DNA from: Alphaproteobacteria bacterium
GTDB lineage: Bacteria > Pseudomonadota > Alphaproteobacteria > UBA828
NCBI GenBank assembly: GCA_965214705.1
Contig: OZ243972.1
Span: 3,808,001-3,872,000, forward strand
DNA length: 64,000 nucleotides
Direction: 5' to 3'
The notes beneath the pieces are model-generated. The model worked only from the letters and a program-made list of their open reading frames with translations. It was not told the origin of the DNA and made no database searches. This document shows positions 46,510-51,280 of the stretch, piece after piece; positions within the stretch are counted from its first letter, which is position 1; each line of letters opens with the position of its first letter. The translations under genes were made by a program, and so were the position numbers.

Positions 46510-47568
46510 ATGCCGGCCAACCCACTCTCGGAAATTCCCCTGATCGACATCGGCCCCTATTTCGGGGGTAGCCGCGCCGACAAGAAGCGCGTCGCGGATG
46601 AGATCAGTCGTGCCTGCGAGCACATCGGCTTCTTCCTGGTTTCCGGCCACCAGGTGGACCCGGCGCTCATCGAAGGCGTGCAACGCGAGTCAAAGGCGTT
46701 CTTCGCCCTGCCGCTCGAGGAGAAGCTCGAAATCAAGCAGCGGAAGGAGGAAAAGGGAAGCCGGGGCTACGAACCGGTCGGCACGGAGCAGCTCTCGGCA
46801 ACGATCGGTGTGGAGACCCCGCCCGACCTCAAGGAATCCCTCTCGATCGGGCCGCTGGCGGTGCCGGACCATCCCTCCTGCCACACCGAGGAAGCGCTAC
46901 CTCTTTTCAGGTCCAACATGTGGCCTGAGAACCCGGCCACGCTTCGCCCTACCTACGAGGCGTACATCAGGGCGCTGGACCGGCTAAGCGAGCACTTGCA
47001 CCGGCTCGCCGCGATCGCGTTCGACCTGCCCGAAGACCACTTCAAGGACAAGATCGACCGGGGGTTCAGCATCCTGCGCGTGCTCAACTATCCGGATCAG
47101 CGGGAGGAGCCCGAGGAGGGTCAGCTCCGCGCGGGAGAGCATTCGGACTATGACAATCTGACCATCTGCCTGATCGAGGACAAGCCGGGCGGCCTGCAGG
47201 CGCGCGGCCCGGACGGCACCTGGGTGGACGTGCCGTTCGTCGCCGGCTCGTTCGTGGTCAATATCGGCGATTTCCTGATGCGCTGGACCAATGACCGCTG
47301 GAAGTCCACGCGGCATCGCGTGGTCAACCCGCCACTCGCCGCCGGGGAGCGCCTCTCCGCCTGCCACTTCATCATGCCCAACCACGATGCAGTGATCGAG
47401 TGCCTGCCGACCTGCCACGGGCCCGATCAGCCGGCGAAATACCCATCGATCCTCGCCGGTGACTACATGATCGAGAAATTCGAGAGCCAATCGTCCGGCG
47501 AAGAGTGGAGCGACGAGGACAGAGAGAAGTTCGGCACCGCGGATACGGAATCGCGCTTCACCCATTGA
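46510..47568 (+). CDS. Isopenicillin N synthase family Fe(II)/2OG oxygenase
   Basis: IPLIDI, ACEHIGFF, HSD...H facial triad, HRVVNP, RLS. Confidence 0.9.
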   Translation: MPANPLSEIPLIDIGPYFGGSRADKKRVADEISRACEHIGFFLVSGHQVDPALIEGVQRESKAFFALPLEEKLEIKQRKEEKGSRGYEPVGTEQLSATIGVETPPDLKESLSIGPLAVPDHPSCHTEEALPLFRSNMWPENPATLRPTYEAYIRALDRLSEHLHRLAAIAFDLPEDHFKDKIDRGFSILRVLNYPDQREEPEEGQLRAGEHSDYDNLTICLIEDKPGGLQARGPDGTWVDVPFVAGSFVVNIGDFLMRWTNDRWKSTRHRVVNPPLAAGERLSACHFIMPNHDAVIECLPTCHGPDQPAKYPSILAGDYMIEKFESQSSGEEWSDEDREKFGTADTESRFTH

Positions 47569-47613
47569 CCATCGCTCAGCGCTCAAATCGGACGCCGATC
47601 GACACTCTTGAGG

Positions 47614-47638
47614 CTACGCGTCGGCCGGCACCCAGGGC
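47614..47638 (-). pseudogene. Displaced original 3' end of the tautomerase gene (PWVPADA-stop)
   Basis: Reverse strand reads ccc tgg gtg ccg gcc gac gcg TAG; continues the tautomerase frame if the IS and one TSD copy are removed. Confidence 0.8.
47630..47638. repeat. Target-site duplication, left copy (ACCCAGGGC)
   Basis: Identical 9-mer at 49987-49995. Confidence 0.9.
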
Positions 47639-49986
47639 CTCACACCGGTCCACAGTTGACTCAATGAGTGGTGTGGGCTACATGTCGTGCCATGCAAGTT
47701 GGCCTTCACCAGTTTCACGCCGACACGATCGAGTGGTTGAGCAAGGCGGTCCTGGAGGAGGGCCGCACTCGCAGTTCTCTTGCCCGCGATCTCTGCGCGC
47801 TTGAGGACTGGACCGGCGATCGGGGCGAGCACTGTCTTGCGTCCGCGCGCAAGGCTCTGCCGGTTCTGGCGGACAAGCTCGGGCTCGCGCTGCCGGCGGC
47901 GCGGGCGGCGTTCGGCCGGGGGCGTCGCGAGAGTGCGCCCATCGAAGCCTACCCCGACCTTTCGCTTCGCTGCCGGCTTGCGGATCTGGGCTCGGTGACA
48001 CTGGAGCCGGTCGACGGCGATGCCGAGCGGCAACTGTGGCAAGCGATGATTGCGACGCACCACCCGCAAGGCTGGGCGCGGGCTCCGGGCGGGCAGCTGC
48101 GCTACTGGGTGCGTTCCTCGCTTCACGGCCGCCTCGGCGGCATCGGGTTTTGCGCCGCGAGCTGGCACCAGAAGGCGCGCGACGACTTTATCGGCTGGTC
48201 GGCGGACGCGCGGGCTTTGAACCTGCCGCTCCTGATCAACAACCATCGCTTCCTGCTTCTGCCCGGCGTGCGCGTCCACGGTCTGGCCTCGCGGGTGCTG
48301 GAGCTGGCGGCCGGGCGCGTGGCGGCGGACTGGGAGACGGCCTACAGGGCGCGGCCGGTCCTGGCCTACAGCTATGTCGGCCCCGAGCATGCCGGCACCT
48401 GCTACCGGGCGGCGGGCTGGCGGTGCTGTTCCCAGCACACCTCGGGCCAGCCGCCGGGGTCCGCCGCCGGGGCGGCGCGGACGGTGTGGATGAAGCCGCT
48501 GGCGGCGGATTGGCAGGCCATCTTGTGCGCCGAGCCGGCCCGGGACATCCGTGCGGCGCCGGCGTTGCACATGGACGAGGACACGGACTGGGCGGGGCGG
48601 GAATATGCGCGCAGCACGCATCCTGACGGCCGGGTCCGCGATCGGATCGAGCGCATGGGACGGGCGTGGCTGGAGCGCCCGGGGGCCGCGATCCCGGCGA
48701 TCTTTCCGGCCCGGCCGGAGCGCAAGGCGGCCTACCGGCTGCTGTCGAGCGGGAAGGTGAGCATGGAGCACATCCTGGAGCCGCACCGGGCAACGATGGT
48801 GGAGCGCTGCCAGCTTGAGGACATCGTTCTCGCGATCCAGGACACCACCACGCTGAACTACGACGGGCTCAAAGCGACCGAAGGCCTCGTCGGGGTGGGC
48901 GGCGGCGGCAAGGGCACGTGCGGACTGGTGGCGCATGTGGGTCTGGCGCTCAACGCGGCCGGGCGGCCGCTCGGCGTGTTCGCCCTTGATGCGAGCTTCC
49001 GCGACGGCGACGACAGGGAAATCGAGAGTGAACGCTGGCTGCGCGGGCACGAGCGGGCGCAGGAGTTGGCCCGCGCCTGCCCTGCGACGCGGGTGGTCAC
49101 GGTCTGCGACCGGGAGGGCGACATCTGGGCGTTGCTCACCAGGGCCGCATCGCAAGGCGCGGCGCTGCTGGTGCGCGCGCGCCGGTCGGCACAGCGGCGG
49201 GTGATCCTTGAGAGCGGCGAGGAGGAGAGCGTGTGGGAGCATGTCGCCGCTCTCCCGCGCCTTGCCGGCAAGACCGTGGAGATCGGCGCCTGCGGCGGCA
49301 AGCGGGCGCGGTCCAGGCGCACGGCAACGCTGGAGCTGCGCGCCGCCAGGGTCAGTCTGGCGCCACCGCGCGACGCCGAGAGCCGGGAGCCGGTCGACAT
49401 GCTCGTCGTGTCCGCGACCGAACCCGACCCGCCCGCCGGCAAGGACCCGCTCAACTGGCTGCTGCTGAGCACCGAGGGCAGCGCCGACGCCGAGACCGCC
49501 CAGACCGTCGTCACCTGGTACGAGCGCCGATGGACCATCGAGGAGTACTTCAAGGTTCTGAAGACCGGCACCCGCGTCGAGGACCGAAAGCTCGACCACG
49601 CCGACGACCTGCGAAAGTGTGTCGCCTTCGATGCCATCACCGCCTGCCACGTCTTCGATCTCGAACGCATCGCGCGCGACAAGCCGGACACCCCGGCCAA
49701 CCACGTCGTCTCGGACGACGAAATCGCCATCCTCTACATCAGGCTGATGGCCTACGGCATGGTTCGCGCCCGTCCGCCGCCCGACAAGCCCCCGGACATC
49801 CGCACCTTCGTCATCGATGTCGCCAGGTTCGCCGGCTTCGATCCACGAAAACGGCAGCCCCTGCCGGGAACCCAACTGCTCTGGAAGGGCTACGTCTACC
49901 TGCGACACGCCACCCTCACCTACCGTGCCTTGAAGGACCTGGACATGATCAAACATGGAACTGACTCAACAGTGGGTAGTTGAGAG
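47639..49986 (+). mobile_element. Complete IS4-family (IS50/Tn5-like) insertion sequence, 2348 bp
   Basis: Imperfect terminal IRs (CTCACACCGGTCCACAGTTGACTCA vs reverse complement CTCTCAACTACCCACTGTTGAGTCA, 18/25), 9-bp TSD, single transposase ORF ending inside the right IR. Confidence 0.92.
47692..49983 (+). CDS. IS4/Tn5-type DDE transposase with N-terminal DUF4338 (DruA-like) domain
   Basis: N-part: LRYWV, RDDFIGWS, INNHRFLLLP..RV..LASRVL, HAGTCYRAAGW. C-part: WAGREY..D.R, AAYRLL, IQDTT, VCDREGD, YERRWTIEEYFKVLK (YREK), PG...LWKG. Confidence 0.9.
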   Translation: MQVGLHQFHADTIEWLSKAVLEEGRTRSSLARDLCALEDWTGDRGEHCLASARKALPVLADKLGLALPAARAAFGRGRRESAPIEAYPDLSLRCRLADLGSVTLEPVDGDAERQLWQAMIATHHPQGWARAPGGQLRYWVRSSLHGRLGGIGFCAASWHQKARDDFIGWSADARALNLPLLINNHRFLLLPGVRVHGLASRVLELAAGRVAADWETAYRARPVLAYSYVGPEHAGTCYRAAGWRCCSQHTSGQPPGSAAGAARTVWMKPLAADWQAILCAEPARDIRAAPALHMDEDTDWAGREYARSTHPDGRVRDRIERMGRAWLERPGAAIPAIFPARPERKAAYRLLSSGKVSMEHILEPHRATMVERCQLEDIVLAIQDTTTLNYDGLKATEGLVGVGGGGKGTCGLVAHVGLALNAAGRPLGVFALDASFRDGDDREIESERWLRGHERAQELARACPATRVVTVCDREGDIWALLTRAASQGAALLVRARRSAQRRVILESGEEESVWEHVAALPRLAGKTVEIGACGGKRARSRRTATLELRAARVSLAPPRDAESREPVDMLVVSATEPDPPAGKDPLNWLLLSTEGSADAETAQTVVTWYERRWTIEEYFKVLKTGTRVEDRKLDHADDLRKCVAFDAITACHVFDLERIARDKPDTPANHVVSDDEIAILYIRLMAYGMVRARPPPDKPPDIRTFVIDVARFAGFDPRKRQPLPGTQLLWKGYVYLRHATLTYRALKDLDMIKHGTDSTVGS

Positions 49987-50333
49987 ACCCAGGGCGGGAG
50001 CGGCGTGCCGCCACAGTAGTGGTTCTCAGCCGGGTTCTCGCGGAACACGACGTAGATGTCGGCGGCGTCGACGCCCATCGTATCGTTCAGAATTTCGGCG
50101 ATGGCATCAACCAGCGCCTTCTTGCGTTCGGGCTCGCGGCCTGGCCTCAAGTCGATCTCGACCAGGGGCACGCCATCGCCGATCTCGGCGACCACCTCGC
50201 GCACGGCGACATAGTCGTACTTGGTCTGCTTGGGCGCGAGGGTCTTGAGCACCGCCGCTTTGACTGCGGTGCGGATGGTTTCCTGCGTGCCTGCAGGCGT
50301 ACCGACGGGGACTTCGAGGCTAATGACGGGCAT
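49920..50333 (-). CDS. Tautomerase family protein (Pro-1), C-terminus altered by IS insertion
   Basis: Starts M-P; GREPERKKALV, DIYVVFRE..N; last 21 aa are read from the IS right end. Confidence 0.8.
   Translation of the reverse strand: MPVISLEVPVGTPAGTQETIRTAVKAAVLKTLAPKQTKYDYVAVREVVAEIGDGVPLVEIDLRPGREPERKKALVDAIAEILNDTMGVDAADIYVVFRENPAENHYCGGTPLPPWVSQLPTVESVPCLIMSRSFKAR
49987..49995. repeat. Target-site duplication, right copy (ACCCAGGGC)
   Basis: Identical to 47630-47638. Confidence 0.9.
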
Positions 50334-50386
50334 GGGCGGTGTCTCCTCTCAGATGGCGAACGGCGTGTGGCGGGGCGCCCTGCGGG

Positions 50387-51280
50387 TCACGAATCGCCGG
50401 GTACAGTGCCCTGGGGCAGGCTCTCGATATGGGCGCAGATGTCGCGCGGGCGGGTCAGCCAGATTCGGTCGCGCTGGGGCGCGATGTGCTCGAAGAAACG
50501 GCGCAGGTGGCGTATGCGGTAGGGCCGCCCCATTACGAAGGGATGGAGCGAGACCGGGAACACCAGGGGCTGCCCATCGCTCTGGGCCAGCATCTCGTCG
50601 AAGCCGTCGATCAGCATGTCCACGAACTCGCGGGCGGTGTGGCCGTACCAGACGATGCCGCGGGTGTCGTTGCACTCGACCGGGTAGGGCATTGCCAGGA
50701 TGCGGCCCACGCGCGTCGTCATCCAAATGGGCTGGTCGTCGCAAGTCCAGTCCATGAAGTAGCGATAGCCCGCCTCCTGCAGCAGGTCGGCGGTGACCGC
50801 GCTGTTCGAGAGCCAGGGGCTCATCCAGCCCGAGGGGCGGCTGCCTTCATGTCGCTCGATGGTCTCGGTGACCTCGGCGATCAGTGCAGCCTCGGACGCC
50901 TCGTCGAGGTGCTCCTGCATGTCCGAGTTGGTGATGCCGTGGCCCAGGATCTCGTGACCGCGCTGCCTGAGCGCCTCCGGGATGTCGGGGCAGTGCTCGT
51001 AGACGCCGAGGTTCAACTGGGCTTCGATGGGCACGTCGAAGGCGTCGAACAGCTCGAGCAGGCGCCAGATGCCGACCCTGTTGCCGTAGTCGCGCCATGA
51101 GAAGACGCTGTGGCTGTTGGCCTGATCCGGCGGGGCGATAGCCGCGCCCTTGCCCTCGCCGAAGCTGAACTGCTCGATGTTGACGGCGACGTAGACGGCG
51201 AGACGCGTGCCGTTCGGCCAGTCGTAGACCGGGCGGCTGGTGATGCTGGAGTAGGAGTAGCGGCCGTGGGTGCGAATCAT
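50387..51280 (-). CDS. Polysaccharide deacetylase family (PuuE allantoinase-like) hydrolase
   Basis: WPNG.RLAV, DYGNRVG.WR, HEILGHG, GWMSP, DDQP, LHPF..G.P.R. Confidence 0.88.
   Translation of the reverse strand: MIRTHGRYSYSSITSRPVYDWPNGTRLAVYVAVNIEQFSFGEGKGAAIAPPDQANSHSVFSWRDYGNRVGIWRLLELFDAFDVPIEAQLNLGVYEHCPDIPEALRQRGHEILGHGITNSDMQEHLDEASEAALIAEVTETIERHEGSRPSGWMSPWLSNSAVTADLLQEAGYRYFMDWTCDDQPIWMTTRVGRILAMPYPVECNDTRGIVWYGHTAREFVDMLIDGFDEMLAQSDGQPLVFPVSLHPFVMGRPYRIRHLRRFFEHIAPQRDRIWLTRPRDICAHIESLPQGTVPGDS

What the first reader, a model, noticed from the sequence alone, without database searches (positions are those of the whole stretch)
47639..49986. IS50/Tn5-type transposase fused to a DUF4338/DruA domain with a Mom-like motif: a transposon that may carry its own DNA-modifying module
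Seen: one uninterrupted ORF of about 763 aa in an element with terminal IRs and a 9-bp TSD. The C-terminal ~465 aa are a full Tn5-type transposase (IQDTT, CDREGD, YREK). The ~300 aa before it are not part of Tn5 transposase and carry DUF4338 signatures (RDDFIGWS, NNHRFLLLP, LASRVL, HAGTCYRAAGW at 48388-48420). Established: DUF4338 is the family of DruA, a component of type I Druantia anti-phage systems; phage Mu Mom is a GNAT-fold DNA-modifying anti-restriction enzyme. Inference: HxGxxYxAxxW resembles my recollection of the Mom-family motif, so the domain may modify DNA to protect the element, mark its ends or targets, or regulate transposition. An in-frame ATG at 48571, just before the transposase domain, could give a transposase-only isoform. 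DUF4338-transposase associations probably exist in databases, but I know of no functional characterisation.
Basis: partly seen in the sequence, partly recalled or inferred. Interest (0 to 1): 0.82.

Follow-up and report, generated by a model that had tools for sequence, protein, structure and literature searches.

The report
Tn5-type transposon with Mom-like enzyme domain
This is a recently active jumping gene whose transposase carries an extra front domain that most resembles the phage Mu enzyme Mom, which chemically modifies DNA; that suggests, but does not prove, that some transposons modify nucleic acid themselves.

Summary
Window 47639-49986 is a 2,348-bp IS4-family, IS50/Tn5-type insertion sequence. 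The genome holds six identical copies and one intact 94% copy, each with its own 9-bp target duplication.

Its single 763-aa ORF (ATG 47692) has three parts:
- a small helical N-terminal module;
- a DUF4338/DruA-family GNAT domain;
- a complete Tn5-type transposase with DDE and YREK motifs.

Sequence-level support is weak. Mom's D149, R151 and its essential insertion are missing, and no activity has been shown. True Druantia DruA, also present in this genome, lacks these residues.

The same domain is joined to ISAs1-type and ISAzo13-type transposases, and is a separate gene in an IS66-type element. The proposed internal-ATG isoform is not conserved.

I found no paper on this fusion. It is best filed as a new variant of a known kind.

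The parts
47630..47638 (.). Left copy of the 9-bp target-site duplication
   Evidence: The same 9 bases recur at 49987-49995. Each of the seven intact copies in the genome has its own different 9-bp duplication.
47639..47663 (+). Left terminal inverted repeat (IRL), 25 bp
   Evidence: The boundary is set by where the seven copies stop being alike. 17 of 25 positions match the reverse complement of the right end. It fits 6 of the 7 specified positions of the IS50-subgroup end consensus in Table 1 of PMC2266710.
47692..49983 (+). Single ORF of 763 aa: helical module, GNAT domain and Tn5-type transposase
   Evidence: Open frame. The ATG start is supported by the 763-aa cluster representative P0001 and by loss of the upstream GTG in the 94% copy. 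dN/dS against the 94% copy is 0.28 overall.
47692..47880 (+). N-terminal small helical module (residues 1-63): two short strand pairs and three helices
47977..48537 (+). DUF4338/DruA-family GNAT domain, closest in structure to phage Mu Mom
48388..48420 (+).
   Evidence: Y238 is kept in 144 of 144 fused homologues and G235 in 143 of 144. hhalign aligns Y238 with Mom Y159 in the paper's numbering.
48571..48573 (+).
   Evidence: This position is Met in only 16 of 103 aligned full-length sequences, so it is not a conserved feature.
48565..49941 (+). Complete Tn5/IS50-type transposase: DNA-binding, DDE catalytic and dimerisation parts
   Evidence: Tn5 transposase 1mus, E 1e-32 over residues 6-469 of 477. 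NCBIfam transpos_IS4_3, E 5.8e-89 over the whole profile. DDE and YREK are conserved.
49962..49986 (-). Right terminal inverted repeat (IRR), 25 bp; contains the ORF's stop codon
   Evidence: Copy boundaries. The stop codon at 49981-49983 lies inside it.
49987..49995 (.). Right copy of the 9-bp target-site duplication
   Evidence: Identical to 47630-47638.

Best explanation
**What it is.** This is an autonomous, recently active insertion sequence of the IS4 family, IS50/Tn5 subgroup. Its single protein has three parts: a small helical N-terminal module, a GNAT-fold domain of the DUF4338/DruA family, and a complete Tn5-type DDE transposase. The anatomy, the copy number and the purifying selection on the extra domain are shown.

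**How it likely works.** This part is inferred.
- The GNAT domain is a working group-transfer enzyme built like phage Mu Mom. It keeps counterparts of four Mom active-site residues, including the two the Mom authors call essential.
- It sits directly before the transposase's end-binding domain. It is therefore brought to whatever DNA the transposase holds.
- It most likely transfers an acyl or aminoacyl group to a nucleic-acid substrate there: transposon ends, the excised element or the target.
- The purpose would be to control transposition or to protect the element.

The donor (acyl-CoA or charged tRNA) and the acceptor are not known.
For: **Mobility**
- Six identical copies and one intact 94% copy, each with its own 9-bp duplication.
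- Relatives at 46-60% identity are multi-copy in several Alpha- and Gammaproteobacteria genome records.

**Transposase intact**
- Tn5 transposase E 1e-32.
- DDE residues kept in 103, 100 and 100 of 103 sequences.

**The extra domain is under selection**
- dN/dS is 0.21 for the domain and 0.30 for the transposase part.
- The fusion is kept across 144 homologues of 600 aa or more.

**Fold**
- Model pLDDT 90.4.
- 51 Foldseek PDB matches at E <= 0.001; the rows shown are GNATs.

**Mom is the closest solved structure**
- The model was made without templates.

**Active site**
- hhalign of the two family alignments covers 119 columns. It pairs H124, R186, S200 and Y238 (763-aa numbering) with Mom H58, R111, S124 and Y159.
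- These are kept in 144, 144, 142 and 144 of 144 fused homologues.

**Recurrent link with transposases**
- The same domain is fused to ISAs1-type transposases and is a separate gene inside an IS66-type unit in this genome.
- It is fused to an ISAzo13-type transposase in 1 of 43 long database relatives.
Against: **The sequence link to Mom is weak**
- hhalign probability is 14.4%, E 0.0019 for a single comparison. With a broader profile it is 7.8%, E 0.0044.
- HMMER profile-to-sequence scores reach at most 9.4 bits.
- Pfam Mom gave no hit at E <= 10.
- Mom as a single sequence scores 21.7, only just above the best of 8 ordinary GNATs from this genome, 20.9.
- The residue pairings rest on that low-probability alignment. 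No residue-level structural superposition was available.

**Mom features that are missing**
- The counterparts of Mom's essential D149 and R151 are Gly and His here, and they vary in the family.
- Mom's essential helix-turn-helix-like insertion (residues about 175-209) is absent. The model has only a loop of about 14 residues at that place.

**Limits of inference**
- Part of Mom's higher Z comes from its greater aligned length.
- The Mom authors themselves write that Mom's donor and acceptor could not be predicted from the structure or from its closest structural relatives (passage read).
- No experiment bears on this protein.
Confidence: 0.5

Rival explanations
1. The domain is an ordinary acetyl-CoA-dependent GNAT. 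It acetylates a protein, such as the transposase itself or a host DNA-binding protein, or a small molecule, and in that way tunes transposition. It does not touch nucleic acid.
For: - Apart from Mom, all high-ranking structural matches are CoA-dependent acetyltransferases such as SpeG, RimI, AAC(6') and the Naa enzymes.
- This protein has R-x-x-G-x-A at the strand-4/helix-3 loop. I recall that pattern as the GNAT pyrophosphate-binding motif.
- Mom's D149 and R151 counterparts and its insertion are missing.
Against: - The Gly of that loop motif is kept in only 81 of 144 fused homologues; it is Asn in 47.
- Mom stands about 2 Z units above every CoA-dependent GNAT.
- The family's invariant R and S match the two residues essential in Mom.
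Confidence: 0.25
2. The domain no longer catalyses anything. It serves as a structural, DNA- or RNA-binding, or ligand-sensing module that helps the transposase find its ends or targets, or restrains it.
For: - Real Druantia DruA, in the same Pfam family, lacks the H, R and S, so non-catalytic family members are plausible.
- The domain sits next to the transposase's DNA-binding part.
Against: Polar residues placed like an active site are invariant or nearly so across 144 diverged fused homologues: H124, R163, D164, R186, S200 and Y238. That is more than a scaffold needs.
Confidence: 0.15
3. The domain is anti-phage cargo: a DruA-like defence component that the transposon carries for the host's benefit.
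For: - The Pfam family is named after Druantia DruA.
- DUF4338 also occurs as an N-terminal fusion on DndF (PMC10853773, passage read).
Against: - PADLOC DruA1 scored only 13.3 bits, E 0.0081.
- The element has one ORF and no DruB-E partners.
- The genome's real Druantia-like operon lies elsewhere, and its DruA differs at the conserved residues.
- The domain is in frame with the transposase and recurs with four transposase families.
Confidence: 0.05

Closest known systems
IS50 / Tn5 transposase (IS4 family, IS50 subgroup)
   Same: - Homologous over the whole Tn5 transposase: E 1e-32, residues 6-469 of 477.
- DDE and Y-2-R-3-E-6-K motifs present.
- 9-bp target duplication.
- Ends begin with CT and fit 6 of the 7 specified consensus positions at each end (and my own reading).
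   Different: - The element is 2,348 bp, against the 1,350-1,550 bp given for the subgroup in Table 1 of PMC2266710.
- The protein has about 290 extra N-terminal residues: a helical module and a GNAT domain.
- The internal start that would mimic Tn5's inhibitor protein is not conserved.
- The list of subgroup members in that paper's additional files could not be seen.
Phage Mu Mom (PDB 8bv8; Pfam PF25680)
   Same: - Closest solved structure to the GNAT domain.
- Counterparts of H58, R111, S124 and Y159 are invariant or nearly so in the fused family.
- Both proteins belong to transposable elements. That Mu is a transposing phage is recalled.
   Different: - No Pfam Mom hit at E <= 10.
- 12-13% identity in the structural alignments.
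- D149 and R151 counterparts are not kept.
- No helix-turn-helix-like insertion.
- This domain has an extra conserved R-D...G-W...R block that hhalign places opposite a gap in Mom.
- It is fused to a transposase rather than free-standing.
- No activity has been shown.
DruA of type I Druantia (PF14236)
   Same: - Same Pfam family: 78.9 bits against a cut-off of 27.
- Shared R-D...I-G-W-S...R block and the motif B Tyr.
   Different: - Only profile positions 52-176 of 297 match.
- PADLOC DruA1 is weak.
- The genome's own DruA matches the full profile at 275 bits, next to an 1,878-aa helicase with DEAD, Helicase_C and MZB domains.
- That DruA has Val and Gly in place of the conserved R and S, has no counterpart of the conserved His, and has an insertion of about 45 residues before the last strand.
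SETMAR, a primate fusion of a histone methyltransferase domain with a mariner transposase (recalled from memory, not checked here)
   Same: A modifying-enzyme domain joined to the N-terminus of a DDE transposase.
   Different: As I recall it, SETMAR is a single domesticated host gene and no longer moves. The element here is a multi-copy, recently active bacterial insertion sequence, and its fusion recurs in several transposase families.

Membership tests
IS4 family, IS50 subgroup | DDE catalytic triad and Y-2-R-3-E-6-K motif | tested here: met
   D384, D473 and E617 are kept in 103, 100 and 100 of 103 sequences. Y610, R613, E617 and K624 were read from the translation.
IS4 family, IS50 subgroup | Target duplication of 8-9 bp | tested here: met
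   9 bp at all seven intact copies. The range is taken from Table 1 of PMC2266710.
IS4 family, IS50 subgroup | Ends of the form CW------Y---CA-A--W- | tested here: met
   Each end fits 6 of the 7 specified positions (my reading).
IS4 family, IS50 subgroup | Typical size 1,350-1,550 bp | tested here: not met
   The element is 2,348 bp. The excess is the extra N-terminal coding region.
IS4 family, IS50 subgroup | Transposase homologous to that of Tn5 | tested here: met
   1mus E 1e-32 over residues 6-469 of 477. NCBIfam transpos_IS4_3 scored 298.9 bits against a cut-off of 160.
Pfam DruA / DUF4338 (PF14236) | Score above the curated cut-off | tested here: met
   78.9 bits against 27, but only profile positions 52-176 of 297 match.
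Type I Druantia DruA (system component) | Match to the PADLOC DruA1 model | tested here: inconclusive
   13.3 bits, E 0.0081, over 46 residues.
Type I Druantia DruA (system component) | Encoded next to DruB-DruE | tested here: not met
   The element has one ORF between its inverted repeats. The genome's Druantia-like operon is on another contig.
Mom family (PF25680) | Match to the Pfam Mom model | tested here: not met
   No hit at E <= 10, while Mu Mom itself scores 253 bits.
Mom family (PF25680) | GNAT fold closest to Mom | tested here: met
Mom family (PF25680) | Essential R111 and S124 | tested here: met
   hhalign pairs them with R186 and S200, which are kept in 144 and 142 of 144 fused homologues. 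The alignment itself has low probability, 14.4%.
Mom family (PF25680) | Essential D149 and R151 | tested here: not met
   The aligned positions are G230 and H233 here. In 144 fused homologues the first is G in 84 and D in 20; the second is H in 55, Q in 22 and R in 22.
Mom family (PF25680) | Essential helix-turn-helix-like insertion (residues about 175-209) | tested here: not met
   The model has only a low-confidence loop of about 14 residues between its last two strands. The feature is described in section 13 of the Mom paper.
Mom family (PF25680) | Glycyl-tRNA-dependent modification of adenine in double-stranded DNA | not testable with these tools
   This needs biochemistry.
GNAT superfamily | GNAT fold | tested here: met
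GNAT superfamily | Q/R-x-x-G-x-G/A cofactor loop (motif recalled from general knowledge) | tested here: inconclusive
   The motif is present in this protein, but its Gly is kept in only 81 of 144 fused homologues.

The most novel reading that the evidence does not exclude
DUF4338 is a transposase-tethered enzyme of the Mom type. It would use an activated acyl or aminoacyl donor, possibly charged tRNA, to modify bases in the DNA that the transposase holds. Several DDE transposase families (IS50-type, ISAs1-type, ISAzo13-type, and IS66-type as a separate gene) would each have recruited it. The resulting mark would control transposition or shield the element from host nucleases. The Druantia DruA would then be a derived, probably non-catalytic, offshoot of this transposon enzyme.
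Probability: 0.2. Interest if true: 0.9.

Novelty: new variant of a known kind. Interest (0 to 1): 0.66.

Why it matters
**For transposon biology.** As I recall, bacterial insertion sequences are usually taken to encode little beyond the transposase. Where DNA modification controls them, as Dam methylation does for IS10 and IS50, the mark comes from a host enzyme. Here a likely active enzyme domain, closest in structure to the only GNAT known to modify DNA, is built into the transposase. It is kept under selection and recurs with four transposase families. If it does modify nucleic acid, transposons would be writing their own marks.

**For DUF4338/DruA.** The family has 4,293 representative clusters at E <= 0.001 and includes the unexplained first gene of type I Druantia. 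This gives it a concrete, testable biochemical hypothesis.

**What is in print.** Searches of the held library found nothing on the transposase fusion: 'DUF4338' in 4 papers, 'PF14236' in 2, 'DruA' with 'acetyltransferase' in 2, and 'Mom-like' with 'GNAT' in 3. The 2026 Mom paper contains no word starting with 'Druantia', 'DruA' or 'transpos'. ISfinder could not be consulted.

Tried and rejected
- **Repeats.** The repeat finder on 47000-50600 did not report the terminal repeats. They are too imperfect and were found from copy boundaries instead.
- **Other collections.** No near-identical DNA in the plasmid collection. No protein match of the domain in the phage collection at E <= 0.001.
- **PDB by sequence.** A profile of the domain family found no solved structure at E <= 10.
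- **Mom by sequence.**
  - BLASTP of the domain against Mu Mom gave E 0.45.
  - The family profile against the single Mom sequence gave probability 1.9%.
  - HMMER in both directions gave at most 9.4 bits.
  - Controls for the profile-profile score of 28.0: twenty column-shuffled Mom alignments scored 8.2-24.0, with 19 of 20 at or below 15.6, and the reversed alignment scored 17.7. Eight ordinary GNATs of this genome, taken as single sequences, scored 10.3-20.9 against 21.7 for Mom as a single sequence.
  - I read this as suggestive only.
- **Foldseek and Mom.** Mom was not among the Foldseek PDB rows shown. It appeared only in the VIA-align runs.
- **Homodimer.** The prediction for the 300-residue N-terminal part scored 0.01 against a mark of 0.42. 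The verdict was 'no answer', so this is evidence neither way.
- **Promoter and terminator.** The scan of 47560-47760 found nothing.
- **Internal ATG at 48571.** Rejected as a conserved feature: Met in 16 of 103 sequences.
- **Rows dropped.**
  - For the conservation counts, I kept 210 of 273 candidate sequences, those covering more than 200 profile positions.
  - In one search, one of the 14 locus pairs (L035/L041) shared 4,051 bp and gave no element boundary, so I left it out.
- **Not available.**
  - Supplementary files of PMC13219725 (alignments and structure tables) and of PMC2266710 (IS50-subgroup member list) could not be seen. They may bear on the residue pairings and on whether long IS50-type elements were already listed.
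Full report
**1. The observation**

It runs from 47668 (GTG) or 47692 (ATG) to 49983 on the plus strand, 771 or 763 aa.

A search of the window's own genome with 47600-50020 found:
- six copies at 100% identity;
- one copy at 94%;
- one copy split by an insertion;
- a 173-bp remnant.

Each of the six identical copies is flanked by a different 9-bp direct duplication. The 94% copy is also 2,348 bp without gaps, has its own 9-bp duplication and an intact frame.

The ends form an imperfect 25-bp inverted repeat, with 17 of 25 positions matching by my reading. The repeat finder missed it.

The 94% copy has no start codon at the GTG position, and the database representative of this protein is 763 aa. 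I therefore take ATG 47692 as the start and number residues from it unless stated otherwise.

**2. What the parts are**

*Transposase.*
- The C-terminal 460 residues are a full Tn5-type transposase. Tn5 transposase 1mus scores E 1e-32 over residues 6-469 of 477.
- NCBIfam transpos_IS4_3 scores E 5.8e-89 over its whole profile.
- There are weak Pfam hits to the Tn5 DNA-binding, DDE and dimerisation models.
- The DDE residues D384, D473 and E617 are kept in 103, 100 and 100 of 103 aligned full-length sequences. Y610-R613-E617-K624 has the Y-2-R-3-E-6-K spacing.
- With the 9-bp duplication and CT-initiated ends, each fitting 6 of 7 specified positions, the element belongs to the IS50 subgroup of the IS4 family as defined in PMC2266710 (Table 1 passage read). 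The exception is its size: 2,348 bp against 1,350-1,550 bp.

*The extra 290 residues.*
- They match Pfam DruA (PF14236, the former DUF4338) at E 4.8e-22, over profile positions 52-176 of 297.
- An AlphaFold2 model of the first 300 residues of the 771-aa frame has mean pLDDT 90.4.
- It shows a small N-terminal module of three helices, a linker, and an alpha/beta domain over residues 104-290 (771-aa numbering).
- Foldseek against the PDB gave 51 matches at E <= 0.001. The rows shown are GNAT acyltransferases.
- PMC10853773 also calls DUF4338 a GNAT domain, as one of the N-terminal fusions on DndF (passage read).

**3. Is it Mom-like?**

*Sequence.*
- Pfam Mom gives no hit at E <= 10.
- BLASTP gives E 0.45.
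- HMMER profiles reach at most 9.4 bits in either direction.
- Profile against profile (34 domain sequences against 42 Mom-family sequences) gives probability 14.4%, E 0.0019, over 119 columns.
- A broader 120-sequence profile gives score 28.0, E 0.0044.
- That score beats all 20 column-shuffled controls (8.2-24.0) and the reversed control (17.7).
- However, Mom as a single sequence (21.7) barely exceeds the best of eight ordinary GNATs from this genome (20.9).
- Sequence alone is therefore only suggestive.

*Structure.*
- The model used no templates.
- Some of Mom's margin comes from its longer aligned length.

*Active site.*
- The Mom paper names H58, Y59, R111, S124, D149, R151 and Y159 as the likely active site. 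Its abstract calls R111 and S124 essential (PMC13219725, abstract and section 13 read). The paper's numbering is that of the translated gene plus 10.
- The hhalign alignment pairs Mom H58, R111, S124 and Y159 with H124, R186, S200 and Y238 of this protein.
- Among 144 fused homologues of 600 aa or more, these are kept in 144, 144, 142 (the other two are Thr) and 144.
- The spacing between them is also similar: R to S is 14 residues here and 13 in Mom; S to Y is 38 here and 35 in Mom.

*Points against.*
- The positions opposite Mom D149 and R151 are Gly and His here, and they vary in the family.
- Mom's essential insertion at about 175-209 has no counterpart.
- The family has its own invariant R163-D164, G168-W169 and R174, which hhalign places opposite a gap in Mom.

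My reading is that this is not a member of the Mom family. Mom is nevertheless its nearest characterised relative in fold and in the core of the active site.

**4. Relation to Druantia**

The genome also has what looks like a real type I Druantia operon on another contig:
- a 398-aa protein matching the whole DruA profile at 275 bits;
- then ORFs of 822 and 369 aa with no Pfam family;
- then an 1,878-aa helicase with DEAD, Helicase_C and MZB domains.

Aligned with the transposon-borne domains, that DruA keeps the R-D...I-G-W-S...R block and the motif B Tyr. It has Val and Gly in place of the conserved R and S, has no counterpart of the conserved His, and carries an insertion of about 45 residues before the last strand.

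The PADLOC DruA1 model scores the IS protein at only 13.3 bits. The label 'DruA' therefore marks family membership, not a Druantia function.

**5. The domain goes with transposases in general**

*In this genome.* PF14236 matches 55 places, against none in 14 control genomes. In a sample of 301 genomes of the phylum, counting this one, 21 have a match, mostly one to three each. Besides the eight copies of this element, the matches include:
- domains fused in front of ISAs1-type transposases (DDE_Tnp_1_assoc plus DDE_Tnp_1), as full frames of 610 and 619 aa;
- a 2,040-bp ISAs1-type element with about two dozen near-identical copies, in which the two halves lie in frames offset by one base;
- a separate domain-only gene at the right edge of a 3.45-kb repeated unit whose other gene is an IS66-family transposase.

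*In the databases.*
- The domain alone finds 4,293 representative clusters at E <= 0.001.
- Of the best 150, 43 are 600 aa or longer.
- Of those 43, all carry DruA, 37 carry the Tn5 DNA-binding domain, 16 DDE_Tnp_1, 15 the Tn5 dimerisation domain, and one a DDE_Tnp_ISAZ013 transposase domain.
- The three relatives that carry a source name are called 'IS4 family transposase'.

*In other genomes.* Relatives of the whole protein at 46-60% identity occur in many copies per genome. The records are labelled Rhodobacterales, Thalassobaculaceae, Paracoccaceae, Alphaproteobacteria, Gammaproteobacteria and Arenicellales. There were 207 confirmed loci, of which 80 were kept. Their ends share an inner block with this element's ends.

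**6. Selection**

Between the main copy and the 94% copy, dN/dS is 0.21 for the N-terminal 292 residues (13.5 non-synonymous and 21.5 synonymous differences). It is 0.30 for the transposase part. The extra domain is at least as constrained as the transposase.

**7. How it most likely works**

*Shown:* an intact, recently mobile IS50-type element, and an extra domain that is conserved, constrained, GNAT-folded and closest to Mom.

*Inferred:*
- The domain is catalytically active.
- It sits directly before the transposase's end-binding domain, so it acts on whatever that domain holds.
- Given Mom's chemistry, a nucleic-acid acceptor is the leading candidate.

The donor and acceptor cannot be read from the fold. 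The Mom authors say the same of Mom itself (passage read). I put the main reading at 0.5. Within it, DNA modification in particular is nearer 0.2-0.3.

The rivals are an ordinary acetyl-CoA-dependent protein or small-molecule acetyltransferase (0.25), a non-catalytic module (0.15), and defence cargo (0.05).

**8. Novelty**

The architecture is already in the sequence databases under a generic transposase name, so the object itself is not new.

I found no paper that discusses it, the recurrence of DUF4338 with several transposase families, or the structural link between DUF4338 and Mom (searches; the term search inside the Mom paper).

I file it as a new variant of a known kind, with interest 0.66.

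Noticed in passing
G000 contig C3:2053161-2055200 (locus L014:1161-3200) and about two dozen other places: A 2,040-bp ISAs1-type element has about two dozen near-identical copies. Its first frame (DUF4338 plus DDE_Tnp_1_assoc) ends just after a run of seven A. The DDE part continues in the frame one base back. This looks like programmed frameshifting or transcriptional slippage, which would yield both a domain-only protein and a full fusion.
   Followed up: partly
G000 contig C2:530537-533991 (locus L015:1538-4992), with a 99.9% copy on C3 and about 80% copies elsewhere: A repeated unit of about 3.45 kb holds an IS66-family transposase gene (745 aa). It is followed by a separate DUF4338 gene that ends about 35 bp before the unit's right edge. 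Here the domain is a stand-alone gene inside the mobile unit.
   Followed up: partly
G000 contig C3:1256127-1268360 (locus L016:128-12361, minus strand): A Druantia type I-like operon: a 398-aa DruA with a full-profile match at 275 bits, ORFs of 822 and 369 aa with no Pfam family, and an 1,878-aa helicase with DEAD, Helicase_C and MZB domains. Its DruA lacks the H, R and S that are conserved in the transposon-borne domains.
   Followed up: partly
G000 contig C3:2635192-2639655 (loci L009, L008): One copy of the element is split by a 2,096-bp insertion that has its own inverted ends and a long ORF of about 628 aa. A 40-base core of that insert occurs 18 times in the genome, so it is another active insertion sequence.
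   Followed up: partly
window 47658-47662 and 49967-49971: Both terminal repeats carry a GANTC site at positions 20-24. As I recall, this is the recognition pattern of the CcrM methyltransferase of Alphaproteobacteria. By my reading, both ends of 4 of the 9 related element types I examined in other genomes also have one at that place. It may be only part of the transposase-binding block.
   Followed up: partly
window 49920-50333, minus strand: The insertion lies in the last codons of a 120-aa ORF. I judged it tautomerase-like by eye only. The last 4 residues are replaced by 21 residues read from the element's right end.
   Followed up: partly
database relatives listed (P0058, P0071, P0073) and one member of alignment A4: The same domain also occurs with an HNH_2 nuclease domain (496 aa), with ankyrin repeats (762 aa), in a 1,320-aa protein, and fused to a DDE_Tnp_ISAZ013 transposase domain.
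   Followed up: no
G000, whole genome: The genome has 55 PF14236 matches. Other genomes sampled from the phylum that have any match have one to three. It also carries several other multi-copy insertion sequences.
   Followed up: partly
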